Shown here piece by piece: positions 2,668 through 47,089 of a DNA stretch of 64,000 nucleotides. Made by a program: the position numbers and the translations under genes. The stretch's first letter is position 1, and the number at the start of each line of letters is the position of its first letter. A model generated the notes under the pieces. It saw only the letters and a program-made list of their open reading frames with translations. It was not told the DNA's origin and did no database searches. Source of the DNA: Chiloscyllium plagiosum (lineage: Eukaryota); NCBI RefSeq assembly GCF_004010195.1, contig NC_057749.1, positions 13,762,543 to 13,826,542 on the forward strand, read 5' to 3'.

Positions 2668-3620
2668 GAGTTTGAGAAGATTTGTAGCTCAGTTTGAGAT
2701 TTTGGATGTAGGTTTGCTCGCTGAGCTGAAAGGTTCATTTCCAGACGTTTTGTTACCTTACCAGGTAACATCTTCAGTGGACGTCATGCGAAGCAATGCT
2801 GAAAATTCCTGCTTTCTATTTATATGTTTGGATTGGTGATTTCATTTCCTGTGGTGAAGTCACTTCCTGTTCCTNNNNNNNNNNNNNNNNNNNNNNNNNN
2901 NNNNNNNNNNNNNNNNNNNNNNNNNNNNNNNNNNNNNNNNNNNNNNNNNNNNNNNNNNNNNNNNNNNNNNNNNNNNNNNNNNNNNNNNNNNNNNNNNNNN
3001 NNNNNNNNNNNNNNNNNNNNNNNNNNNNNNNNNNNNNNNNNNNNNNNNNNNNNNNNNNNNNNNNNNNNNNNNNNNNNNNNNNNNNNNNNNNNNNNNNNNN
3101 NNNNNNNNNNNNNNNNNNNNNNNNNNNNNNNNNNNNNNNNNNNNNNNNNNNNNNNNNNNNNNNNNNNNNNNNNNNNNNNNNNNNNNNNNNNNNNNNNNNN
3201 NNNNNNNNNNNNNNNNNNNNNNNNNNNNNNNNNNNNNNNNNNNNNNNNNNNNNNNNNNNNNNNNNNNNNNNNNNNNNNNNNNNNNNNNNNNNNNNNNNNN
3301 NNNNNNNNNNNNNNNNNNNNNNNNNNNNNNNNNNNNNNNNNNNNNNNNNNNNNNNNNNNNNNNNNNNNNNNNNNTAGGAATTCTCGTGCATGTCTTTGTT
3401 TGGCTTGTACTAGGATGGCTGTATTGTCCCAGTTGAAGTGGTGCCCTTCCTCATCCATATGTGAGGATACTACTGAGAGAGGGTCATGTCTTTTTGTGGC
3501 TAGTTGGTGCTCGTGTATCCTGGTGATTAGTTTTCTGCCTGTTTGTCCAATGTAGTGTTTGTCACAGTACTTGCACGGTATTTTGTAAATGACGTTAGTT
3601 TTGCTCATTGTCTGTATGAG
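2668..3620 (-). mobile_element. Penelope-like element fragment (GIY-YIG endonuclease plus pLTR), split by a gap
   Basis: Minus ORF SKTNVIYKIPCKYCDKHYIGQTGRKLITRIHEHQLATKRHD is a PLE GIY-YIG domain. The pLTR at 2668-2874 carries a degenerate hammerhead motif. Confidence 0.85.
2875..3374. other. Assembly gap (500 N)
   Basis: Run of N. Confidence 1.
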
Positions 3621-3726
3621 AAAAAGATAGAGCATGCAAGTCTCGGTTAAGAAAAAGATTAACAGTGAGAGAAACATAACAAAGAATGAGAAAGGATATA
3701 ATAAAGACAAGAATGGTGAAGAGGAG

Positions 3727-3904
3727 TGAGTTTTGAGAAGATCTGTAGCTCAGGTTGAGATTCTGGATGTAAGTTTGCTCGCTGAGCTGGAAGGTTCATT
3801 TTCAGACGTTTCGTCACCCTACTAAGTAACATCTTCAACCAGAAGCTCACTGACTGTGCTACCTAATATGGTGACGAAACATCTGAAAATGAACTTTCAT
3901 CCAC
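3727..3904. mobile_element. Short Penelope pLTR fold-back element with 12-bp TSD
   Basis: Same pLTR as 2668-2780, followed by a partial inverted copy. TSD ggtgaagaggag at 3715-3726 and 3905-3916. Confidence 0.8.
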
Positions 3905-12814: not shown

Positions 12815-12998
12815 TAGATACTTTTATGAAGTCAACTTAAGGGCAAAATTCGAACAACACCAGGTTATAGTCCAACAGGTTTATTTAAAATTGCAAGCTT
12901 TCAGAGCTCAGCTTCTTCCTCAATCATGGTATGATACAGAAGTGTTAGACATAGTATTTATAAGCAAAACGTTAACACTTTAAAACTAGCTGTCCTTG

Positions 12999-13782
12999 CA
13001 AGGTTTGTAGCTCAGGTTGAGGTTTAGGGTGTAGGTTTGCTCGCTGAGCTGTAGGTTTGATATCCAGACATTTCATTACCTGGCTAGGTAACATCATCAG
13101 TGGCGACCTCCAAGTGAAGCAAAGTTGTTGTCTCCTGCTTTCTATTTATATGTTTGTCCTGGATGGGGTTCCTGGGCTGGTGTTCGTGTATCCTGGTGGC
13201 TAACTTTCTTCCTGTTTGTCCTACGTAGTGTTTGTGGAATTACATGGAAATTTGTAGATGACATTGGTTTTGTCCGTGGGTTGTACTGGGTCTTTTAAGT
13301 TTGTTCATTTTTGTTTGAGAGTGTTGGTGGGTTTGTGTGCTACTAGGATTCCGAGGGGTCTTTGTAGTCTGGCTGTCAATTCTGAAACTTCTTTGCTGTA
13401 TGGTAAGGTGGTTAGGGTTTCTGGCTGTGTTTGGTCTGGATGTTGTGGTTTGTTCTTGAGGAATCTGCAGACTGTATTTTTTGAGTGTCCGTTCTTCTTG
13501 AATACGTTGTATAGGTGGTTCTCCTCTGTTTTCCGAAGTTCCGAAGCAAAGCACTCCAACCGTAACGCCATAAATAAACACATAGATCTAGATACCATCT
13601 ATCAACCCCTCAGTAAACGAACAGGAAATTACATCCCTAGGAGCGCCATTCAGGACAAACATATAAATAGAAAGCAGGAGACAAAGCTTCGCTTCACATG
13701 GAGGTCGCCACTGATGATGTTACCTAGCCAGGTAATGAAACGTCTGGATAGCAAACCTACAGCTCAGCGAGCAAACTTACAC
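12999..13782. mobile_element. Penelope-like element with inverted pLTRs and internal ORF remnant
   Basis: ~160-bp near-perfect inverted arms. Internal minus remnant EENHLYNVFKKNG...TLPY.KEVSELTARLQRPLGILVAHKPTNTLKQ. 14-bp TSD actagctgtccttg at 12985-12998 and 13783-13796. Confidence 0.9.
13707..13748 (+). ncRNA. Minimal type I hammerhead ribozyme motif in PLE pLTR
   Basis: cca CTGATGA T GTTACCT agcc AGGTAAT GAAA CGTC tgg: intact CUGAUGA/GAAA core, stem II, GUC cleavage triplet and stem I cca/tgg. Confidence 0.75.
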
Positions 13783-13802
13783 ACTAGCTGTCCTTGTTAG
13801 GA

Positions 13803-14670: not shown

Positions 14671-15192
14671 AGACTAATTAAAATGCAAAATCCAGATTCC
14701 TTTCAAGTCTTTTTGTCCCTCAATAATTAAAGGTTTTATCAATGTACAAGAAGTGACATCTCAGATTAGACAATACGCTTTAGGTGTGAGGTCCCTACGA
14801 GAGAGCGAGAGAGAGAGAGTGTGTGTGTGTTCACATGTGCATACATGTGGCAGGAGCAAATAAGGAAAGAAAACTGGGCAGAAACAAATGTCTTTTGCAT
14901 GATCTAAGAAATAATCATGCCCAAAATATTAAAATATTAATCAGGTATTTGATATTATAAATAAGAACTAATGAACGAAGATTTGGAACAAGATATATAT
15001 AAAACTGCTTACAGTTCCCAAGTTCACCTTCTTCCTCTCTAAAACCCACTATAAGCTTTAATTGAATTAGTTATATATTCGCCAGTTAACTATTTAAAAA
15101 AAAAATCAATATTTGAGTGCAAAAACTGGTTTGGTTATGAGACCTTTGCTGATACTGAGGTTCCCAGGTATTACTGGGTTCATTAGTAGATT

Positions 15193-15611
15193 GTTAAAAA
15201 TCACACAACAGCAGGTTATAGTCCAACAGGTTTAATTGGAAGCACTAGCTTTCGGAGCGCTGCTCCTTCATCAGGTTTCTGTGGAGTACACAATTGTAAG
15301 ATATAGAATTTATAGCAAAAGTTGACAGTGTGATGTAATTGAAATTATACATTGAAAAATACCTTGATTGTAACACATGAGAGACTTAATAAACAATCAA
15401 TGTATTTTTCAATGTATAATTTCAGTTCCAGCACACTGTCAACTCTTGCTATAAATTCTGTATCTTACAATTGTGTACTCCCACAGCCACCTGATGAAGG
15501 AGCAGCGCTCCGAAAGCTAGTGCTTCCAATTAAACCTGTTGGACTATAACCTGCTGTTGTGTGATTTTTAACTTTGTACACCCTAGTCCAACACCGGCAT
15601 CTCCAAATCAT
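15193..15611. mobile_element. Penelope-derived fold-back element (family B), ~180-bp inverted arms
   Basis: gttaaaaatcacacaac...gttgtgtgatttttaac palindrome with a 3' tail. Duplicated flank cattagtagattgt at 15181 and 15609. Confidence 0.85.
15485..15525 (+). ncRNA. Minimal hammerhead ribozyme motif (family B)
   Basis: cac CTGATGA A GGAGC agc GCTCC GAAA GCTA gtg: core, stem II and stem I cac/gtg. A mirror copy lies on the minus strand at 15241-15276. Confidence 0.7.
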
Positions 15612-16576
15612 TAGTAGATTGTGTGTGCAAATCCCACTATGAAGCCTGTTATAATGGGGAGCAAAATACATTGATCAAAATTGCATTTAGCTGCTGGTGA
15701 AGATGAACTATTCTTCAGTGCTAAAAATCTTTCCTATATTCCCTCCATCATGTTAGGAAGTAATTTGTTGCAGTTTCCGTTGCATTTTACAAAAACAAAA
15801 TAATTGCCTGAATGTAAAGTGGCTGGAGGTATAAAATATCTTGCTGTGTCTTGGCTTAATTCCCAAACTCTGACATAGTAATACCTAGAATTCTTCCGAG
15901 TCTGCTAGTAATGGTAAAAAGATATTATAAATTACAATACAGCCATTTTACAATTATACTGTATGTTTGGTAATTGATCAACAGGCCATTTAACCCAATG
16001 GGTCTATGCTGGCATTTTACAGCGGTTCAAAAAAGGAGCTCAACACCACCTTCCCAAGGGCAACTAGGTTGAGCAATAAATACTGGCTCAGCCAGCCACA
16101 CCCATATCCGCACAGTGATTAAAAGAATCTATAAGGCTTCCTTAATTTTATAGATTGGAATGCAGTATTCCAGTCTATCTATTGTGACATCTAGCGGTGG
16201 GACAATGTCATGACAACTGTTCACAGTGTAAGTCAGTGAAATACTTACAGGTAGCAAAAACATGAATTCATATTCATAGAAATAGAGATTAGAGCACGAC
16301 TGGTTTTACTTGATATGTAAATTTAGGGAAGTATTTATGAACTCTAAATAATTTAAAACTAATAGTGAATAAGTTCTTCCAATGTTTGTGGATTTCTCCT
16401 TGTCAACCTTCATGTGTTATTTTCTCTTCTGTTCCTATATTACTCAGCATTATAACTATGCAACAAAAGCAACAACATATAAGCATGAATCTGTTTTTCT
16501 AAAGAAACTGTCAGCCTGCTTATTTGTAAAATTAATTAATTCTAATTATATAGTTTCCCTCACCCTATTAAATAGT

Positions 16577-20949: not shown

Positions 20950-21480
20950 AATTTGATTTGATTTCATTTATGGTCGTCATGTGTACCTAAGTGAAAAGCT
21001 TTGTGAGCAGGACAGATCACAGTAAGCAAGTTACATACAGATCATAGAGAGAAAATGAGGGCTGCAGATGCTGGAGATCAGAGCTGAAAATGTGTTGCTG
21101 GAAAAGCACAGCAGGTCAGGCAGCATCCAAGGAACAGGAAAATCGACGTTTCAAGCCATTCCTGAAGAAGGGCTTATGCCCGAAACGTCGATTCTCCTGT
21201 TCCTTGGATGCTGCCTGACCTGCTGCGCTTTTCCAGCAACACATTTTCAGCTACATACAGATCATAGGGTGATTAGACAGAGTGAGGCATACAGGTTACA
21301 TTGCACAGCAGGTACATGAAGCAAGTTCAACGTTAACAAGATCAACATTATTTGAAGTTACAGAGTCCATTTGTCAATCTAATAATAGTAGAGTGAATGT
21401 TCTTGAACCGGTTAGTGCATGTGTTCAAGCTTCTGTACCTTCTAGTTGTAGAAGAAGTTGTAGGAAAGCTTTACATAGAT
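20950..21480 (-). mobile_element. Rex1/Babar LINE 3' end
   Basis: (atttg)n tail and gtgaaaagctttg...gttcttgaaccggttagtgcatgtgttcaagcttctgtacc resemble the reverse complement of 14420-14670 and 35590-35850. Confidence 0.7.
21048..21251. mobile_element. Young family A fold-back element with hammerhead
   Basis: Near-perfect inverted arms. CTGAAGAAGGGCTTATGCCCGAAACGTC at ~21162-21189. 16-bp TSD tacatacagatcatag at 21032-21047 and 21252-21267. Confidence 0.9.
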
Positions 21481-22402: not shown

Positions 22403-22482
22403 GTACTGTGCGAAACGTCGATTCTCCTGTTCCCTGGATGCTGCCTGACCTGCTGCGCTTTTCCAGCAACACATTTTCAGCT
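22403..22482 (+). mobile_element. Truncated family A arm
   Basis: Nearly identical to 21181-21251. TSD cctatactgtgca at 22390-22402 and 22483-22495. Confidence 0.85.
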
Positions 22483-23979
22483 CCTATACTGTGCATTAAC
22501 CTATCTTCTCTGTGCATGATTAATTCTCCAAAATTTGGTTCTGTAGTTCACTTTTCTAAAGTAGTCTTTTTTTATGCTCAGCTCAAATGCCCATTCTCAC
22601 TCACTGAACCCATACATCGAGTATCAGGTGGAACGATAGAAAGGCAATAGTTTCCACCCCCCAGTCCGAAACAGTGAGGCCAATTGTGACACCCCAATTT
22701 CTGTTGCACTGAGGTATTCAAATTGTTTAATCATGATCAAGACTATAATTAAGTTACTTTAATCAATGCAATCAACCTTACATTTGCAAGACATTTTGGC
22801 AATCTTCACTAAAGAAACAGCAATTGACATCACTAGTTTGACACAATAGAATAGCATTTAACAATGTTCACCACACGTATGGATATCTTTTTTCAATGGC
22901 AAATAAAGAGTAAGTGCTAAATGGGCAGAAGAACAAAAATGTAAAGGACTTAGATGTGACAAAAACATGGTTGAAAAGAAAGTCTCTCACAAGGTTTTTA
23001 AAAGGCAGGGAGGGAGGTGGAGGCAATGAGCAAAAGTTCCAGAAGGCACTTGCAGACAACTAAAGGACAGCCATTGCTAGTTGAATGAAGGACAAATAAT
23101 AAATAAACCAGTTTTTGAAGAGCAGGGAGATGCATATATAAGGCGTCACAGAAAGAGATCGTGAGGCAAATTAACTGTAGGATTTGAGGTGATCTGGAGG
23201 TCAGATAACAAGTGAAATAGGTGCTAAGCATTAGGGTGACAGGGATGAGAAGGCAGCTGCAGGCTTTAGTACAGGCTGTCGTACTGAAGATGTCTTATGG
23301 AGATGGGGAAGCAATTCACTGATGGAAAATCCTAAGATCTGACCATTCCTGAATAAAATTTGATCTTTTCATTAGTAATTCTGTTGATTGACTATTCATT
23401 TTTGAGACCATTTACATCCTTGCTTTGCACGAACTTGTAGTCTGTGCTCCCTCAGGCCAATATCCTGAAACCTGTGAGTCATTAGTAAATGTACATCTGT
23501 GCATCATGCCCTCATGCAATTTGACATACTTGATGGATATCAGCTTCTCAAAGACTCCTCCTCCTCCATGTCCAGATATTTTTCACCCTCCCCAGGGAAA
23601 TTCAATTAAGAGTGTCTGTTCCCACCCATCAGTCAATGATTGACACGATCAGGATTCTATCCACAACTCATTGTCATGTGAGATGTGTCTGGGTCTGCAA
23701 GTTAGCAAGGGAATTGCAGCTTGCTGGTTTGAAGATGCTAATTTTTCTTATTCATAAAACAGAAACTGAACCGACCCTTTCTGCCTAGATGGATTAAAAC
23801 TTAGAGGCTACTGAAAGCATTGCCAATGGCAGGTTAGTTTAGGGTCAAAATAGATTAAAGGGTCAAACTATATCCAATTATACAATACTAATATCGCATT
23901 TATTAAAACTGTTTCAGCTTACATCAAAGCTAGCTGTGCAATTTAGTTTGAACATGAAGGTATCTGAATTGTGAAATGA

Positions 23980-31225: not shown

Positions 31226-31935
31226 ATAGAGTCACAGAGTTATACAGCATAGAAACAGACCCTTCAGTTCTACTCGACTGTCCTGACCGGACATTCCAAT
31301 CTGCCCTAGTCCCATTTGCAAGCATTTGGCCCTTCTAAACCCTTCTTATTCATGTACCCATCCAGATGCCCACCTCCATAAACTCCTCTGACAACCCATT
31401 CCATACAGGCACCACCCTCTACCTGAGTTGCCCCTCAGGTCCCTTTTAAATATTTCCCCTCTCATCTTGAACCTAGTTAAAAATCACAACATCAGGTTAT
31501 AGTCCAATAGGTTTATTTGAAAGCACTAGCTTTCAGAGCACTCCTCCTTCATCATGTAGCTGAAGCTGATGAAAGAGCAGCGATCCGAAAGCCAGTGCTT
31601 CCAAATAAATATTTTGGACTATAACCTGGTGTTGTGTGATTTTTAACTTTGCCCACCCCAGTCCAACAGTGGCTCCTCCACACCTTAAACCTACACCCTC
31701 TAGTTTTGGACTCCCCTATCCTGTGAAAAAGACCTTGGCCATTCACTCTATCCACGTCCTTCATGATTTTATAAACCTCTATACAGTCCCCTTCAGCCTT
31801 TGACATTCCAGGGATAAAAAGCCGCAGCCTACTACTGAGCCTCTCCCTATAGCTCAAACCTTCCAATCCCAGTAACATCCTTGTGATTTTTTTCTGAACC
31901 CTTTCGAATTTAACAATATCTTTCCTACAGCAGAT
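31226..31935 (-). mobile_element. CR1 3' fragment with nested family B fold-back element (31476-31680)
   Basis: RKDIVKFERVQKKITRMLLGLEGLSYRERL. The insert has inverted gttaaaaatcacaac arms and a CTGATGAAAGAGCAGCGATCCGAAAGC motif. Confidence 0.85.
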
Positions 31936-34019: not shown

Positions 34020-35143
34020 TGACTGATTAGCAAGGTTAGATCTCACTGAATACAGGGAGAACTAGCCACTTGGATACAGAACTAGCTCAAAGTAGAAGAC
34101 AGAGAGTGATGGTGGAGGGTTGTTTGTCAGACTGGAGGCCTGTGATCAGTGGAGTGCCACAAGGATCGGTGCTGGGTCCTCTATTTTTTGTTATTTACAT
34201 AAATGATTTGGATGCGAGCATAAGAGGTACAGCTAGTAAGTTTGCAAAAATGGGAGGTGTAGTGGACAGCGAAGAGTTACTTCAGATTACAACAGGATCT
34301 TGATTAGATGGGCCAATGGGCTGAGAAGTGGCAGATGGAGTTTAATTCAGATAAATGCAAGATGCTGCATTTTGGGAAAGCAAATCTTAGCAGGACTTAT
34401 ACACTTAATGGTAAGGTCCTAGGGAGTGTTGCTGAACAAAGAGACCCTGGAGTGCAGGTTCATAGCTCTTTGAAAGTGGAGTCGTAGGTAGATAGGATAG
34501 TGAAGGAGGCATTTGCAATGCTTTCCTTTATTAGTCAGAGTATTGAGTACAAGAGCTGGGAGGTCATGTTGCGGCTGTACAGGACATTGGTTAGGCCACC
34601 GTTGGAATATTGCATGCAATTCTGGTCTCCTTCCTATCGAAAAGATGTTGTGAAACTTGAAAAGGTTCAGAAAAGATTTAAAGATGTTGCCAGGGTTGAA
34701 GGATTTGAGCTATAGAGAGAAGCTGAACAGGCTGGGGCTGTTTTCCCTGGAGCGTTGGAGGTTGAGGGGTGACCTTATAGTGGTTTACACAATTATGAGG
34801 GGCATGGATAGGGTAAATAGGCAAAGTCTTTTCCCTGGGGTCAAGGAGTCCAGAACTAGAGGGCATAGGTTTGGGGTGAGAAGGGAAAGATATAAAAGAG
34901 ACCTACGGGGCAACATTTTCACAGAGAGGGTGGTATGTGTGTGGAATGAGCTGCCAGAGGAAGTGGTGGAGACTGGGTACAATTGCAACATTTAAAAGGC
35001 AGTTGGATGGGTATATGAATGGGAAGGGTTTGGAGGGATAGGGACCAGGTGCTGGCAGGTGTGACTAGGTTGGGTTGGGATATCTGGTCGGCATGGAGGA
35101 GTTGGACTGAAGGGTTTGTTTCCATGCTGTACATCTCTATGAC
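34020..35143 (+). mobile_element. CR1 (HER1-like) LINE 3' ~1.1 kb
   Basis: [51 protein letters not shown]; catctctatgact tail. Confidence 0.95.
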
Positions 35144-35850: not shown

Positions 35851-36115
35851 CCTACCTGCAAACCCACTTTCAAGGAACTATGCATCTGTACCCCTTGGTC
35901 TCTGTTCTGCAATGCTCCGCATGGCCCTACCATTAACTGGTTTGCCTTACCAAAATGCAACACCTCACTTTCATCTAAATTAAACTCCGTCTGCCACTCC
36001 TCTCCCCTTTGTCCCATCTGATCAAGATCCCACTGCACACAGAGATAACTGTCTTCAGTGTCCACTACACCACCTATTTTGGTGTTATCTGCAAACTTAC
36101 TAATCATATCTTCGA
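35850..36115 (-). mobile_element. CR1 RT fragment
   Basis: ISKFADNTKIGGVVD...WQTEFNLDESEVLHFGK. Confidence 0.9.
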
Positions 36116-43104: not shown

Positions 43105-44330
43105 CATAGAGTCATAGAGATGTACAGCATGGAAACAGACCCTTCAGTCCAACTCGTCCACGCCGACCAGATATCCGAACCTAATTTGGTACCATTTGCC
43201 AGCCCTTGACCCATATCTCTCTAAACCCTTCCTATTCATATACCCATCCAGATGCCTTTTAAATGTTGCAATTGTACCAGCCTCTACCACTTCCTCTGGC
43301 AGCTCATTCCATACATGCACCACCCTCTGTGTGAAAATGTTGACTCTTAGGTCCCTTTTATATGTTTTCCCTCTCACCCTAAACATATGCCCTTTAGCTC
43401 TGGACTCCCTCACCACAGGGAAAAGACATTGTCTATTTACCCTAACCATGCCCCTCATGATTTTGTAAACCTTTATGAGGTCACTCCTCACACTCAGACA
43501 CTGCAGGGAAAACTGCCAAAGCCTATTCAGCTTCTCCTTATAGCTCAAACCCTCCAATCCTGGTATCATCCTCAAAATCTTTTCTGAACCCTTTCAAGTT
43601 TCACAACATCTTTCCGATAGAAAGGAGACCAGCATTGCATGCAATATTCCAAAAGTGACCGAACCAACATCCTGTACAACTGCAACATGACCTCCCAACT
43701 CCTTTACTCAATGCTCTGACCAATAAAGGAAAGCATACTAAACGCCTTCTTCACTATCCTATCCACCTGTGACTCTACTTTCAGGGAGCTATGAAGCTGC
43801 ACTCCAAGGTCTCTTTGTTCAGCAACACTCCCTTGGACCTTGCCATTAAGTGTATAGGCCCTGCTAAGATTTGCTTTTCCAAAATGCAGCACCTCACATT
43901 TATTTAAATTAAATTCTATCTGCCACTCCTCAACGCATTGGCCCATCTGATTAAGATCCCATTATAATCTGAGGTAACCTTCTTTGCTGTCCACTACACC
44001 TCCAATTTTGGTGTCATCTGCAAACTTACTAACCATACCTCCTACGTTCACGTCCAAATTATATAAATGATAAAAAGAGTGGACCCAGCCCACTGATCCT
44101 TGTGGCCCTCCACTGGCCCCAAGTCTCTAGTCTGAAAAGCAACCCTCTACCACCAAACTCTGTTTTCTCCTTTCAAGTCTGTTCTATAGCCAAATGTCTA
44201 GTCCACCCTGTATTCCATAAGATCTAAACTTGCTAACCAATCTCCCATGGGCAACCTTGTTGAACGCCATAGTTAATCCATATAGATCATGTCCACCACT
44301 CTGCCCTCATCAATCCTTCTGTTACCTCTT
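43105..44330 (-). mobile_element. CR1 LINE 3' ~1.2 kb
   Basis: RMIPGLEGLSYKEKLNRL...DLIKVYKIMRG. Same subfamily as 34020-35143, in opposite orientation. Confidence 0.95.
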
Positions 44331-44365
44331 CCTCCAGTGATAGTAATTTTCTTGAGTTCCTTTCT

Positions 44366-44863
44366 GGATGTAGGTTTGCCCCCAGACACCTCGCCACCAC
44401 ACTAGGCAACATCATCAGCGAGCCTCCAGATGAAGCACTGGCGGCATGGCCAGCCCCCTATTTGTATGTCTGGGCCTCCCTGGGCCGGTGATGTCACTTC
44501 CTCTGGTGATGTCATTTCTTGTTCTTCTCCCGGGGGGTGGCAAATGGGATCCAAGCCAACGCCTCCACCGATAGAGTTCCAGCCAGAATGCTTAGAAGCA
44601 TGGCATTCCAACCGGAACTCCACCAACAAAGACACCGACCCGCATCTCATCCACCACCCCCAGAGAAAAAAGAACAGGAAAGGACGTCACCAACCCAAGC
44701 ACACAAACAGAAAGTAGGCCATGCCACCAACGCTTCATTTGGAGGCACACCAACGACGCCACCCAGCACAGCGACGAAATGTCCGAAAACTAACTCTCCA
44801 GCTCAGTGAGCAAACCTAAATCCAGAACCTCAACCTGAGCTACAAATCTTCTCAAAACTCGCC
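44366..44863. mobile_element. Penelope fold-back element with T>C hypermutation
   Basis: Same pLTR family as 2668-2874 and 3727-3840. Hairpin centre gaatgc-ttagaagcatg-gcattc at ~44586-44608. TSD gagttcctttct at 44354-44365 and 44864-44875. Confidence 0.85.
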
Positions 44864-45204
44864 GAGTTCCTTTCTCCCTACTTTTCCTGACCTATATCTT
44901 ACTAGTAGACACTATGGCAGGCTTCACTAACATACGAGCCATCAGGCCATTGTACAAGATACAGTCAAACGTGACTGCAAGGTTAAGGGTTTATACGATT
45001 TTCCAATTCACAATTTCTCTCCCATGATTGTTGCTAATGGATTCCTCTCCGGTTTACTGCCCCTTCACCTTAGCTAGCCCAACTCTCAAACCCTCATAAC
45101 TGTCTTAACTAAGTTGCAGATACTAGTCACTTTTCACTCCTCAAACTGAAAGTAGAATTTAATCATATTATGGTCACTACTTCCCTGGGAAGAGTTCACT
45201 GATT

Positions 45205-45335
45205 CATCAGCGCTGCTGGGGGGGTGGGGGAAACACTGACGTCATGTCATCCCCCACGTGTCTTTGATCACGTGATCAGAGCCCCGCCCCTCCTGGTCTT
45301 GCGCCTTAACATGGCGGCAGTGAATCCGTGGCTTG
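45205..45335 (+). promoter_or_regulatory. Promoter-like motif cluster in a CpG-rich patch
   Basis: TGACGTCA 45237-45244, CACGTG 45255-45260, TGATCACGTGATCA 45265-45278, GCCCCGCCCC 45281-45290, AACATGGCGGC 45308-45318. Confidence 0.55.
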
Positions 45336-45492: not shown

Positions 45493-46210
45493 TCTACTGC
45501 ACTGCTCATTCGGTTAAAAAACAGTTCAACAGACTGAAGTGAAACTGTGTCTTCAAGTCGTACTTATATTTAAAATTAAAATAACTGGAGTGCGACCAAT
45601 TCCATTGCCTTGCACCAATTCCCTCTTTTACCTCAGTAGGGGAGAGTTTTCCATGCGCTCACGTTTTTTTTGTGCGGGTGTCGGATATTCCGGTTTGGGG
45701 GTGGGGAACCCACCGATGCCGGCTCCGGTGTTGACCGCAACAGCGGGGATTACGTTTGAGAGAAAACATCTTTTTGTCTATTAATAAAAACAATTCAGTT
45801 TAAAACAAAACGCTGTTTGCAATCCTAAACCAGAATGAAATCAAATTCAAAAAGAATCCTTGATTTACCTTCCTTGCCTACGGACACCCATAAGCTCTCT
45901 CGAAGGCAGTGATTCACACTGGGGTAAAATTCATTTTTATAAAACATTGCCCAATAGTCAAATTGCCAATTTTGAAAAATGAACCCAGACAGTGTGCTAC
46001 TAGACTGGTCAACAATGGAAGGGCCTTACAACCCCATCTGATCTGATACCTGCATATGCACTTTCCAGAAAACGTCACAACTGGAAGCAAGAAACTGACT
46101 TCTTGCAATCCAACATCGCACCAGGACACTGCATATGCTGTGTTAAAATTTTTTGATGTTATGAACGTGGTAAATAATGTGGTAATACTCAGATAATCTG
46201 TTTTAATAGT

Positions 46211-46789
46211 TTTTGTGGTTCTGTTCGCCGAGCTGGGAATTTGTGTTGCAGACGTTTTGTCCCCTGTCTAGGTGACATCCTCAGTGCTTGGGAGCCTCTT
46301 GTGAAGCGCTTCTGTGATCTTTCCTCCGCCATTTGTAGTGGTTTGAATCTGCCACTGAATCATTTCCGAACTGACAGCCAGACTACTGCAACCACTAGGA
46401 CTCAAACAGCACACAAACCAACAGCCACTCTCAGACAACAACTCACCAGAACGAAGGACCCGATACCCAGCATGAGCAAAACCAATGTAGTGTACAAAAT
46501 CCCATGCAAGGACTGCACAAAACACTACATAGGACAAACAGGAAGACAGCTAACGATCTGCATCCATGAACACCAACTAGCCACGAAACGACACGACCAG
46601 CTATCCTTAGCAGTCAAAACCACTACAAATGGCGAAGGAAAGATCACAGAAGCGCTTCACAGGAGGCTCCCAAGCACTGAGAATGTCACCTAGTCAGGGG
46701 ACGAAACGTCTGCAGCACAAATTCCCAGCTCGGCGAACAGAACCACAACAACGAGCACCCGAGCTAAAAATCTTCTCACAAACTCTGAA
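46211..46789. mobile_element. Penelope element with inverted pLTRs and internal GIY-YIG remnant
   Basis: Plus-strand SKTNVVYKIPCKDCTKHYIGQTGRQL..IHEHQLATKRHD; ~135-bp inverted arms; imperfect TSD ctgtttta..agt. Confidence 0.9.
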
Positions 46790-47089
46790 CTGTTTTAGCA
46801 GTGTTGCTGACCATAGATTAACTTGCCTAGATTAACTCCTTTAAAGCAGTGCCATAGAATCTTCTACATTCAGCTGAAGATCAGGTAGACCCTCAGTTTA
46901 ACATTTCTTCCAACATGTCTGATAGTTCAGTACTTGCCCAGTACCGCACTTAATGTTAGACTTAGTTTTTACACAGTCCACTAACATACTCCTACCAGAA
47001 TCAAGTGGTTCAGAGATGAAAATGTTACCAACCTGTCATCAGCAATCACTCGCTAACAATATTGATCAACCACCCAGGAAATTCCATGT

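What the first reader, a model, noticed from the sequence alone, without database searches (positions are those of the whole stretch)
44366..44863. Fossil of an ADAR-hyper-edited hairpin RNA: Penelope fold-back with one-directional T>C change in both arms
Seen: aligning the left arm (reverse complement of 44381-44427) to the right arm (44741-44787) gives 21 mismatches in 47 nt by my count. Of these, 20 are T/C or G/A and always in the same direction: C.A mismatches on the plus strand but G.U wobbles on the minus strand. Against unmutated relatives in the window (3727-3840, 2668-2874) the derived base is C on + in both arms (tgatgatgttacctag>caacgacgccacccag; gacgtttcgtcacc>gacacctcgccacc). The unpaired tail (44820-44862) matches the relatives almost perfectly. 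Sister hairpins (12999-13782, 46211-46789) show no such bias, and the TSD is intact. Established: ADARs convert A to I processively in long dsRNA, and RT reads I as G. Inference: a minus-strand transcript containing both arms was hyper-edited and then copied into germline DNA. This could be by remobilisation of the whole hairpin, or by RNA-templated conversion from SCAPER pre-mRNA, which is also the minus strand. The editing destroyed the hammerhead cores of both arms.
Basis: partly seen in the sequence, partly recalled or inferred. Interest (0 to 1): 0.85.

Follow-up and report, generated by a model that had tools for sequence, protein, structure and literature searches.

The report
ADAR-type hypermutated Penelope fold-back fossil
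A hairpin-shaped retrotransposon copy carries about forty one-directional T-to-C changes on one DNA strand, confined to its two pairing arms; this is the footprint expected if an RNA-editing enzyme rewrote its hairpin RNA and the edited RNA was then copied into inherited DNA.

Summary
Window 44366-44863 is a Penelope-like (PLE) fold-back with ~230-nt arms, an 11-nt loop, a 40-nt tail and an intact 12-nt TSD. The arms differ at 69 of 203 aligned columns. Of these, 53 are G.U-on-minus transitions against 7 of the opposite kind (p~8e-10). Polarised with relatives, the + strand has T>C 40, A>G 2, G>A 9, C>T 3. About 44 of 99 stem T's were converted, against at most 2 of 22 T's in tail plus TSDs. 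The 5' neighbour order on the minus strand is U>A>C>G (trend p=0.0075). Two sister hairpins, a perfect fold-back of the same architecture and the flanks show no bias. Contigs from three coded organisms carry the edited sequence, so it is real and old. ADAR-type hyper-editing of a minus-polarity hairpin RNA fixed in DNA is the best explanation (~0.6). How it reached DNA is open. Canonical PLE insertion copies + sense RNA, so plain remobilisation fits poorly and an in-situ write-back stays possible. The host gene and its strand (SCAPER, minus) were not verified. No whole genome was available, so the genome-wide consensus and paralogue tests were not done.

The parts
44354..44365 (.). left copy of the 12-nt target-site duplication GAGTTCCTTTCT
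   Evidence: family D8: 100% identical to 44864-44875. None of its 6 T's is changed.
44366..44597 (-). left arm: inverted (antisense on +) pLTR copy without tail. Its outer end lies at the same pLTR position as the tail-less arms of the sister hairpins.
   Evidence: It carries 24 polarised T>C changes on +. It lacks about 21 nt near 44380 relative to the right arm. A contig of organism C has 21 extra letters somewhere within 44293-44441; where they lie was not shown (record 28).
44412..44418 (-). intact CUGAUGA hammerhead box of the left arm (read on the minus strand)
   Evidence: sequence; alignment
44385..44393 (-). degraded 3' hammerhead box of the left arm (CGAGGUGUC where relatives have CGAAACGUC)
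44592..44602 (.). 11-nt loop and junction between the arms
   Evidence: pair I4 (arms 44574-44591 and 44603-44620, 11 nt apart); structure
44598..44823 (+). right arm: sense pLTR copy
   Evidence: It carries 16 polarised T>C changes on +.
44750..44756 (+). degraded CUGAUGA box of the right arm (CCAACGA)
   Evidence: At 44752, organisms B and C still have G.
44775..44783 (+). 3' hammerhead box of the right arm (CGAAAUGUC), largely kept
44824..44863 (+). unpaired 40-nt PLE tail; at most 2 of its 10 T's changed
   Evidence: A tail at one end is a known PLE feature (PMC8557442, PMC11167929).
44864..44875 (.). right copy of the target-site duplication

Best explanation
A Penelope-like element inserted here as a near-perfect fold-back, the usual product of PLE integration. 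It consisted of a tail-less inverted pLTR arm, a small loop, a sense pLTR arm, a tail and a 12-nt TSD. An RNA of minus polarity spanning both arms folded into a stem of about 230 bp. An ADAR-type adenosine deaminase converted roughly 45% of the stem adenosines to inosine, with no editing in the unpaired tail or flanks. That edited sequence was then copied into germline DNA by a reverse-transcription step, giving T>C on the + strand in both arms at unshared positions. This happened before three sampled organisms diverged. Afterwards, CpGs created by the edits decayed and small indels arose. Shown: the structure, the spectrum, the one-strand topology, the extent of the bias, its age and its reality. 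Inferred: the enzyme, the RNA intermediate and the RNA-to-DNA step. The route is open. My split is about half in-situ write-back at this locus, about a third retrotransposition of an edited hairpin transcript from a parent locus, and the rest unknown.
For: (1) Spectrum. On the + strand the polarised changes are T>C 40, A>G 2, G>A 9, C>T 3 and 6 transversions. The binomial p for 40 against 2 is 4e-10.
(2) Polarity is independent of my alignment choices. Each arm keeps the hammerhead box that the other has lost. Family-wide contigs carry T at 44442, 44623, 44635 and 44772.
(3) One-strand logic. Both arms show the same + strand letter change at different positions, so the mismatches are G.U on the minus strand. 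That strand has 59 G.U among 215 pairs; its MFE is -288.6 kcal/mol (z -17.2) against -174.7 (z -8.7) for the + strand.
(4) Extent. 44 of 99 stem T's were converted against 2 of 22 in tail plus TSDs (p=0.0015). Among the 13 listed left-flank differences to the repeat-family majority, 1 is T>C.
(5) Neighbour preference. The edited fraction by 5' neighbour on the minus strand is U 0.69, A 0.46, C 0.44, G 0.28. A trend test in that predefined order gives one-sided p=0.0075. Depletion of G upstream is the published ADAR mark (PMC2873906, passages read).
(6) Controls. Sister hairpins are unbiased. Of 10 inverted duplex segments found in purine/pyrimidine space across the window, only the two segments of this element are strongly biased, at 33:3:2 and 18:1:0.
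(7) Burst, not drift. The other mismatch classes total 13-16 of ~200 columns, like the sister hairpins (7-12%), while the one biased class alone adds 26%.
(8) Secondary CpG decay. 4 of 9 G>A changes follow a C. At 44752 and 44585, organisms B and/or C keep the G.
(9) Precedent. A>G hyper-edited avian retroviruses are reported (RAV-1 and avian leucosis virus, cited in PMC8586724, passage read); that the edits were recovered in proviral DNA is recalled from the original papers, not read.
Against: No RNA evidence for this locus exists. No RNA holder was listed, and the one presumed RNA run gave only paralogue-like contigs over the arms.
G depletion upstream is modest: 7 of 44 edited sites (16%) have a 5' G, against 6-8% in published ADAR sets. 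The comparison of G with the other neighbours alone gives p=0.066.
There is no 3' G enrichment.
The tail alone does not differ significantly from the stem (2 of 10 against 44 of 99, p=0.19).
In the inner third of the arms the polarisation rests on a single relative.
The edited strand is opposite to the canonical + sense PLE template, so an ordinary retrotransposition cycle does not explain the RNA-to-DNA step. No accepted natural mechanism for an in-situ step is established.
The host transcription strand is unverified.
Confidence: 0.6

Rival explanations
1. In-situ DNA editing in an R-loop. Transcription in + polarity leaves the minus DNA strand in an RNA:DNA hybrid. The displaced + strand folds back on itself, which stabilises the hybrid over the palindrome. 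An ADAR then deaminates dA in the DNA strand, and replication fixes A>G on the minus strand. No RT step is needed.
For: The affected strand and letter fit. Restriction to the palindrome could follow from R-loop stabilisation. ADAR editing of the DNA strand of hybrids in vitro is cited in PMC11817618 (passages read).
Against: From my own knowledge, DNA-strand editing by native ADARs is inefficient, while here 44 of 99 sites changed. This model needs + polarity transcription. The only hint on transcription strand is a window-wide excess of A over T and C over G on +, which weakly favours minus as the sense strand. The tail and TSD would lie in the same hybrid, yet they are spared.
Confidence: 0.1
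2. Error-prone DNA resynthesis of the minus strand across an unstable palindrome. A polymerase that inserts G opposite T (Pol iota or Pol eta type) would give A>G on the new strand in both arms.
For: The one-strand, both-arm pattern at unshared sites fits a single resynthesis tract. Perfect palindromes are fragile, and the DNA-level hairpin energy per nucleotide is now less than half that of the perfect fold-back at 15194-15608. The higher rates with U or A as 5' neighbour are also compatible with a WA-type preference.
Against: From my own knowledge, such polymerases are distributive, and a tract of about 450 nt at 44% error is unprecedented. Transversions would also be expected, but only 6-9 are seen. 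The limits of the change coincide with the stem and not with an arbitrary repair tract.
Confidence: 0.1
3. Gradual, strand-asymmetric substitution. Possible drivers are transcription-coupled A>G bias on the coding strand, stepwise hard-wiring of edited sites, or selection that tolerates only changes keeping a functional minus-strand RNA hairpin.
For: The minus-strand RNA still folds as an almost continuous stem. Elevated A>G substitution at edited sites is discussed in PMC7186786 (abstract only). The skew is compatible with minus being the sense strand.
Against: The biased class adds 26% divergence on top of a background of about 6-8%, which matches the sister hairpins. Constraint would lower change, not raise it. 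C>U on the minus strand would also keep pairing and is normally the commoner mutation, yet it is four times rarer here and is partly CpG decay. Flanks, tail and three other fold-backs in the same window lack the bias. None of the six orthologue differences listed is a lineage-specific edit outside a CpG (table truncated).
Confidence: 0.1
4. Not a derived state at all: either an assembly or sequencing artefact, or a C-rich subfamily whose arms were copied from different master copies.
For: Only four related elements were available for comparison, and no genome-wide consensus could be built.
Against: Contigs from three coded organisms reproduce the sequence. Each arm keeps the conserved hammerhead box that the other has lost, so the common ancestor of the arms had both. 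Family-wide contigs carry T where this copy has C. The published twin-strand PLE insertion mechanism copies both arms from sense RNA (PMC11167929). That would give opposite + strand letters in the two arms, not the same letter.
Confidence: 0.03

Closest known systems
ADAR hyper-editing of long inverted-repeat dsRNA (Alu pairs in human; palindromic clusters in Xenopus). PMC4365171: abstract only. PMC2873906: passages read.
   Same: Clusters of A>G on one RNA strand, both arms of an intramolecular stem affected, G depleted upstream, and editing confined to the paired region.
   Different: Those cases are RNA-DNA differences. Here the changes are in the genome itself and are shared by three organisms.
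A>G hypermutated avian retroviruses (RAV-1, avian leucosis virus), as cited in PMC8586724 (passage read). The original papers were not held.
   Same: Edited dsRNA regions of a retroelement RNA are reverse-transcribed, so that the edits end up in DNA. That the edits were recovered in proviral DNA is recalled; the passage read reports only the hyper-editing.
   Different: Those are exogenous viruses in culture and the edits are in the genomic sense RNA. Here it is a germline non-LTR-type element, and the edited strand is opposite to the element's canonical template.
APOBEC G>A hypermutated endogenous retroelements (DNA-editing fossils). PMC2873906: passages read.
   Same: A one-directional cluster of transitions in a retroelement copy, kept as a genomic fossil of a deaminase.
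   Different: The letter change (A>G rather than C>T or G>A), the substrate (dsRNA stem rather than single-stranded cDNA) and the enzyme family all differ. The APOBEC-type spectrum was tested here and not met.
Penelope-like element fold-back insertions: inverted 5'-truncated copy plus a 30-40-nt tail. PMC8557442: passages read. PMC11167929: main text read.
   Same: The architecture matches: a tail at one end only, the tail-less arm ending at the second RT start position, a TSD, and a min-hammerhead in the pLTR. An unedited example of the same build lies at 15194-15608.
   Different: No published PLE copy with one-strand A>G hypermutation turned up in my literature searches.
Deaminase-driven reverse-transcription (RNA-templated write-back) hypothesis. 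PMC11817618: passages read.
   Same: It proposes exactly the in-situ route: ADAR-edited pre-mRNA copied back into the transcribed locus, giving A>G on the coding strand.
   Different: It is a contested hypothesis built on somatic mutation spectra. This would be a single germline locus with an internal control (stem against tail) and orthologues.

Membership tests
Penelope-like element (PLE) insertion | pseudo-LTR carrying a minimal hammerhead core (CUGAUGA ... GAAA) with a long helix II | tested here: met
   Relatives have intact cores. The pattern CTGANGA..GAAAYGTC gives 5 matches against 0.02 expected, and CTGANGA..CGAAA gives 9 against 0.15. In this copy each arm keeps one box. Rfam finds no hammerhead even in intact copies. 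That is expected for min-HHRs, which lack helix III (PMC4209133).
Penelope-like element (PLE) insertion | 30-40-nt tail at one end only, and an adjacent inverted 5'-truncated copy | tested here: met
   The 40-nt tail at 44824-44863 is present only on the right arm. The left arm ends at the same pLTR position as the tail-less arms of hairpins A and D. This matches PMC8557442 and PMC11167929.
Penelope-like element (PLE) insertion | target-site duplication | tested here: met
   12 of 12 nt identical
Penelope-like element (PLE) insertion | family encodes RT plus GIY-YIG endonuclease | tested here: inconclusive
   This copy has no ORF. The ORF end of the more distant sister D (46421-46693) hits 13 proteins. 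Three of them carry RVT_1 (PF00078), seven carry PF26215, and one (P0013) carries GIY-YIG (PF01541). Pfam did not score the D fragment itself at E<=0.01.
ADAR hyper-editing cluster | only A>G, on one strand | tested here: met
   A>G on the minus strand 40, against 2 on the plus strand
ADAR hyper-editing cluster | confined to a long double-stranded RNA region | tested here: met
   Stem 44 of 99 against tail plus TSDs 2 of 22, p=0.0015. Against the tail alone p=0.19. The minus-strand RNA forms a near-continuous stem.
ADAR hyper-editing cluster | G depleted at the 5' neighbour | tested here: inconclusive
   The order U 0.69 > A 0.46 > C 0.44 > G 0.28 has trend p=0.0075. G against the rest gives only p=0.066, and 16% of edited sites still have a 5' G.
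ADAR hyper-editing cluster | G enriched at the 3' neighbour | tested here: not met
   Edited fractions by 3' neighbour are C 0.52, G 0.47, U 0.42, A 0.39; chi-square p=0.82. From my own knowledge this preference is weak under saturating editing.
ADAR hyper-editing cluster | inosine or A>G seen in RNA relative to DNA | not testable with these tools
   No RNA holder was listed. The contigs of the presumed RNA run over the arms look like paralogues.
APOBEC-type hypermutated retroelement | cluster of G>A or C>T on one strand | tested here: not met
   G>A 9 and C>T 3 against T>C 40. 4 of the 9 G>A lie in a CpG context.

The most novel reading that the evidence does not exclude
The fold-back inserted unedited, as its canonical ends and TSD suggest. 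It was later rewritten in place. A minus-polarity transcript through the palindrome, possibly host pre-mRNA, was hyper-edited by ADAR and then served as template for repair of the fragile palindrome. This fixed about 45 edits in germline DNA in one event and at the same time destroyed the DNA palindrome. It would be a natural vertebrate germline case of RNA-templated DNA write-back.
Probability: 0.3. Interest if true: 0.9.

Novelty: new variant of a known kind. Interest (0 to 1): 0.7.

Why it matters
Deaminase fossils in genomes are well known for APOBEC, which acts on DNA. A germline fossil of ADAR editing needs an RNA-to-DNA step, so each such locus reports on reverse information flow.

This locus has unusual internal controls: stem against tail and TSD, two arms, sister hairpins, and orthologues. 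Its topology is also informative, because the edited strand is opposite to the element's normal template.

If more such loci exist, a simple genome-wide test can decide between two routes. The test asks whether the edited strand follows the host-gene sense strand or the element's orientation. The first outcome points to in-situ RNA-templated write-back, the second to retrotransposition of edited hairpin transcripts. Whether write-back occurs at all is a contested, long-standing question.

The locus also shows how hyper-editing can defuse a perfect DNA palindrome while leaving a G.U-rich RNA hairpin.

Tried and rejected
Tool and data limits:
- No whole genome is held. The family consensus, paralogues sharing the edits and the parent copy could therefore not be sought.
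- Earlier findings of this scan returned nothing.
- Rfam found no hammerhead at the gathering score, at E<=1 over the window, or at E<=10 on an intact copy.

Host gene:
- Pfam scans of 242 stop-free ORFs (241 minus-strand ORFs of at least 45 aa plus one + strand ORF of sister D) gave no SCAPER or other host-gene hit.
- A crude splice-site and ORF filter gave nothing convincing.
- A look at 44990-45260 showed no evident exon.
- The + strand ORFs were not scanned.

Expression:
- No RNA holder was listed.
- Run X15 is only guessed to be RNA. It gave an exact contig at 45046-45193 and paralogue-like contigs over the arms. Nothing can be said about expression of this copy.
- Table 3 is truncated (184 rows not shown), so orthologue differences are only partly known.

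Papers not held: Knisbacher & Levanon 2015 and Hajjar & Linial 1995. What I say of them is recalled, or taken from papers that cite them.

Models considered and rejected:
- Twin-strand TPRT copying ADAR-edited sense RNA. It predicts sense A>G in both arms, that is opposite + strand letters. Only the left arm fits.
- ADAR editing of cDNA in TPRT hybrids. Only the right arm fits.
- Snap-back cDNA with G-opposite-U/T misincorporation. It predicts shared changes in both arms, but only about 3 shared T>C are seen.
- GC-biased conversion between arms, which has no strand asymmetry.
- APOBEC, which gives the wrong letters.

My count of decayed edit-made CpGs was confounded by edits in the partner arm and is not used.

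Full report
WHAT IS THERE. Window 44366-44863 (498 nt) is flanked by a perfect 12-nt direct repeat, GAGTTCCTTTCT (44354-44365 and 44864-44875). It folds back on itself around 44592-44602 (pair I4). Aligned with related sequences in the window, the right half (44598-44823) is a sense copy and the left half (44366-44597) an inverted copy of the same repeat. The related sequences are rc 2660-2874 ('B'), rc 3720-3845 ('C'), hairpin 'A' at 12990-13795 and the more distant hairpin 'D' at 46205-46795. The right half continues into a 40-nt tail (44824-44863) that the left half lacks.

The relatives carry the hammerhead core boxes. The pattern CTGANGA..GAAAYGTC gives 5 matches against 0.02 expected, and CTGANGA..CGAAA gives 9 against 0.15. 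The ORF end of sister D hits shark proteins that carry RVT_1 and PF26215, and one that carries GIY-YIG. An inverted 5'-truncated copy, a 30-40-nt tail at one end and a minimal hammerhead in the pseudo-LTR are the published marks of Penelope-like elements (PMC8557442 passages; PMC4209133 passages). Rfam finds no hammerhead even in intact copies, which fits min-HHRs lacking helix III. A second fold-back of another PLE family at 15194-15608 has the same build: a 13-nt TSD, a tail-less arm, a small loop, a second arm and a tail of about 36 nt. Its arms are almost perfect. This architecture is therefore a normal insertion product.

THE OBSERVATION. Over the whole arms, 203 columns align and 134 match. 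The 69 mismatches are (T,C) 24, (G,A) 29, (A,G) 4, (C,T) 3 and 9 transversions. That is 53 mismatches that are G.U on the minus strand against 7 that are G.U on the plus strand (p=7.7e-10). Sister hairpins give 3:8:10 (A) and 4:3:3 (D). I also scanned the window for all inverted repeats up to 2.5 kb apart in purine/pyrimidine space. It returned 10 segments, and only the two belonging to this element are strongly biased, at 33:3:2 and 18:1:0.

DIRECTION OF CHANGE. For each arm-arm mismatch I asked which arm agrees with the relatives. On the + strand this gives T>C 40 (24 left, 16 right), A>G 2, G>A 9, C>T 3 and 6 transversions; 9 mismatches could not be polarised. Two independent supports exist. 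First, each arm keeps the conserved hammerhead box that the other has lost. The left arm keeps CUGAUGA but has GAGGU for GAAAC, and the right arm has CCAACGA but keeps GAAAU. Second, in public contigs laid at 80% likeness, the great majority of family members have T at 44442, 44623, 44635 and 44772 and G at 44752. One caveat applies: in the inner third of the arms only one relative was available.

About 44 of 99 + strand T's in the paired region are now C, and 0 of 99 A's are now G by the same rule. 4 of the 9 G>A changes follow a C. At 44752 and 44585, organisms B and/or C still have G. Part of the G>A class is therefore decay of CpGs that the T>C changes had created.

WHERE IT STOPS. At most 2 of the 10 tail T's changed, and the two TSD copies have 12 T's unchanged. 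Stem against tail plus TSDs gives p=0.0015; against the tail alone p=0.19. Among the 13 listed differences between the left-flank repeat and its family majority, only 1 is T>C (truncated table). The 21 nt of the right arm that now lack a partner (44787-44807) also carry T>C, at 2-3 of 4-5 T's. A contig of organism C that bridges the left junction has 21 extra letters (record 28). This is consistent with the left-arm deletion being later and lineage-specific.

REALITY AND AGE. A contig of organism A covers 44489-44826 with 1 difference. A contig of organism B covers 44403-44615 with 5 differences and 1 gap. Contigs of organism C cover 44293-44441 (bridging the left junction), 44412-44699 (17 differences), 44692-44849 (19 differences, 13 gaps) and 44839-45297. 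An unedited copy would differ at 23 or more sites in 44412-44699 from edits alone, so most edits are shared. Flank divergence between A and C is about 3.5% (5 of 149 and 16 of 459). All of these are contigs, not raw reads, and the difference table is truncated.

WHAT KIND OF PROCESS. Three facts constrain the mechanism.
- Only adenine on one strand is affected, at about 44% of sites, while other mutation classes sit at background. Background is 13-16 of ~200 columns, like the sister hairpins.
- Both arms are affected on the same strand at different positions, so the target was a single strand carrying both arms after the fold-back existed.
- The effect tracks the paired region.

The minus-polarity RNA still folds into an almost continuous stem: -288.6 kcal/mol, z -17.2, with 59 G.U among 215 pairs. 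The plus RNA gives -174.7 kcal/mol and z -8.7. The edited fraction by 5' neighbour on the minus strand is U 0.69, A 0.46, C 0.44, G 0.28. The trend in that order has p=0.0075, while G against the rest gives p=0.066. Depletion of G upstream is the ADAR mark (PMC2873906). No 3' preference is seen. Together this fits promiscuous ADAR editing of a long perfect duplex better than anything else I could name.

HOW DID IT REACH DNA? The published in-vitro work on an Anolis PLE shows three things. Both target strands are cleaved and extended. RT starts at two adjacent internal sites of the + sense RNA. The tail is the stretch between those sites (PMC11167929, main text). That explains the architecture here: each arm is a first-strand cDNA of sense RNA, one started at the tail-including site and the other at the tail-less site. 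It also means that editing before insertion should give sense A>G in both arms, that is opposite + strand letters. Only the left arm fits that prediction. Editing of cDNA in hybrids would fit only the right arm. A snap-back cDNA with misincorporation would make the changes shared, and only about 3 shared T>C exist.

Two routes remain. One is retrotransposition of a minus-polarity hairpin transcript from a parent locus. Its 3' start could use the tail-less RT site, but its 5' end would have to coincide with the canonical tail end. The other is rewriting in place after a normal insertion. In-place rewriting could run through RNA-templated repair of the fragile palindrome. A contested hypothesis of this kind exists (PMC11817618). 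It could also run through ADAR acting on the DNA strand of an R-loop, which needs + polarity transcription, or through an error-prone polymerase. I could not decide between these routes. No genome is held, and the host gene and its strand could not be verified. The only hint is a window-wide excess of A over T and C over G on the + strand.

COMPARISON AND NOVELTY. ADAR hyper-editing of inverted repeats is commonplace at the RNA level (PMC4365171 abstract; PMC2873906). A>G hyper-edited avian retroviruses are reported (RAV-1 and avian leucosis virus, cited in PMC8586724, passage read); that such edits can pass through reverse transcription into proviral DNA is recalled from the original papers, not read. 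APOBEC fossils in endogenous elements are known (PMC2873906). My searches found no report of a germline ADAR-type fossil in a Penelope-like element, nor of one whose edited strand opposes the element's template. The review by Knisbacher & Levanon (2015) may bear on this but was not held. I rate this a new variant of a known kind, of high interest mainly because the locus makes the route question testable.

VERDICT. The ADAR-type reading is the best explanation (about 0.6). The route is unresolved, and the SCAPER/minus-strand claim is untested.

Noticed in passing
window 15181-15621: A nearly perfect fold-back of another hammerhead-bearing PLE family. The arm segments 15193-15276/15489-15572 match 84 of 84. 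It has a small loop, a tail of about 36 nt on the right, and a 13-nt TSD cattagtagattg at both ends. It has the same architecture as the finding but is unedited, so it is probably young.
   Followed up: partly
window 13864, 15250, 15491, 16787, 21162, 31566, 52365, 53371, 61242: Nine minimal hammerhead-like cores (CTGANGA..CGAAA) against 0.15 expected by chance. Several hammerhead-bearing repeat families populate this window.
   Followed up: partly
window 21080-21252 and 22411-22484: A short hairpin repeat with a hammerhead-like core. Its arm mismatches are 4:0:0 and 5:0:0 (G.U-on-minus : G.U-on-plus : transversions). This could be a weak bias in the same direction or chance; the counts are too small to tell.
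   Followed up: no
window 43700-44320: The left flank is a very high-copy repeat. Its minus-strand ORFs resemble LINE reverse-transcriptase fragments (FADD-type motif, by eye). Contig depth there is 100- to 1000-fold above the unique flank. Pfam did not score the fragments.
   Followed up: partly
window 2875-3374: A 500-N gap cuts PLE copy B directly after its pLTR. This agrees with the published remark that inverted and tandem PLE structures break assemblies.
   Followed up: no
window 44904-45057: At several right-flank positions (for example 44904 and 44988), all listed contigs of organisms A, B and C carry a letter different from the window. This could be individual variation, paralogous contigs or local assembly error.
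   Followed up: no
window 31518-31603 (minus strand): A weak Rfam mir-1597-like hairpin hit (E 0.26, far below the gathering score) overlaps a hammerhead-like core at 31566-31590. It is probably just another copy of the hairpin repeat.
   Followed up: no
window 34288-34355 / 35970-36037: An inverted repeat 1.6 kb apart with arm mismatches 7:2:4, a mild excess in the same direction as the finding.
   Followed up: no
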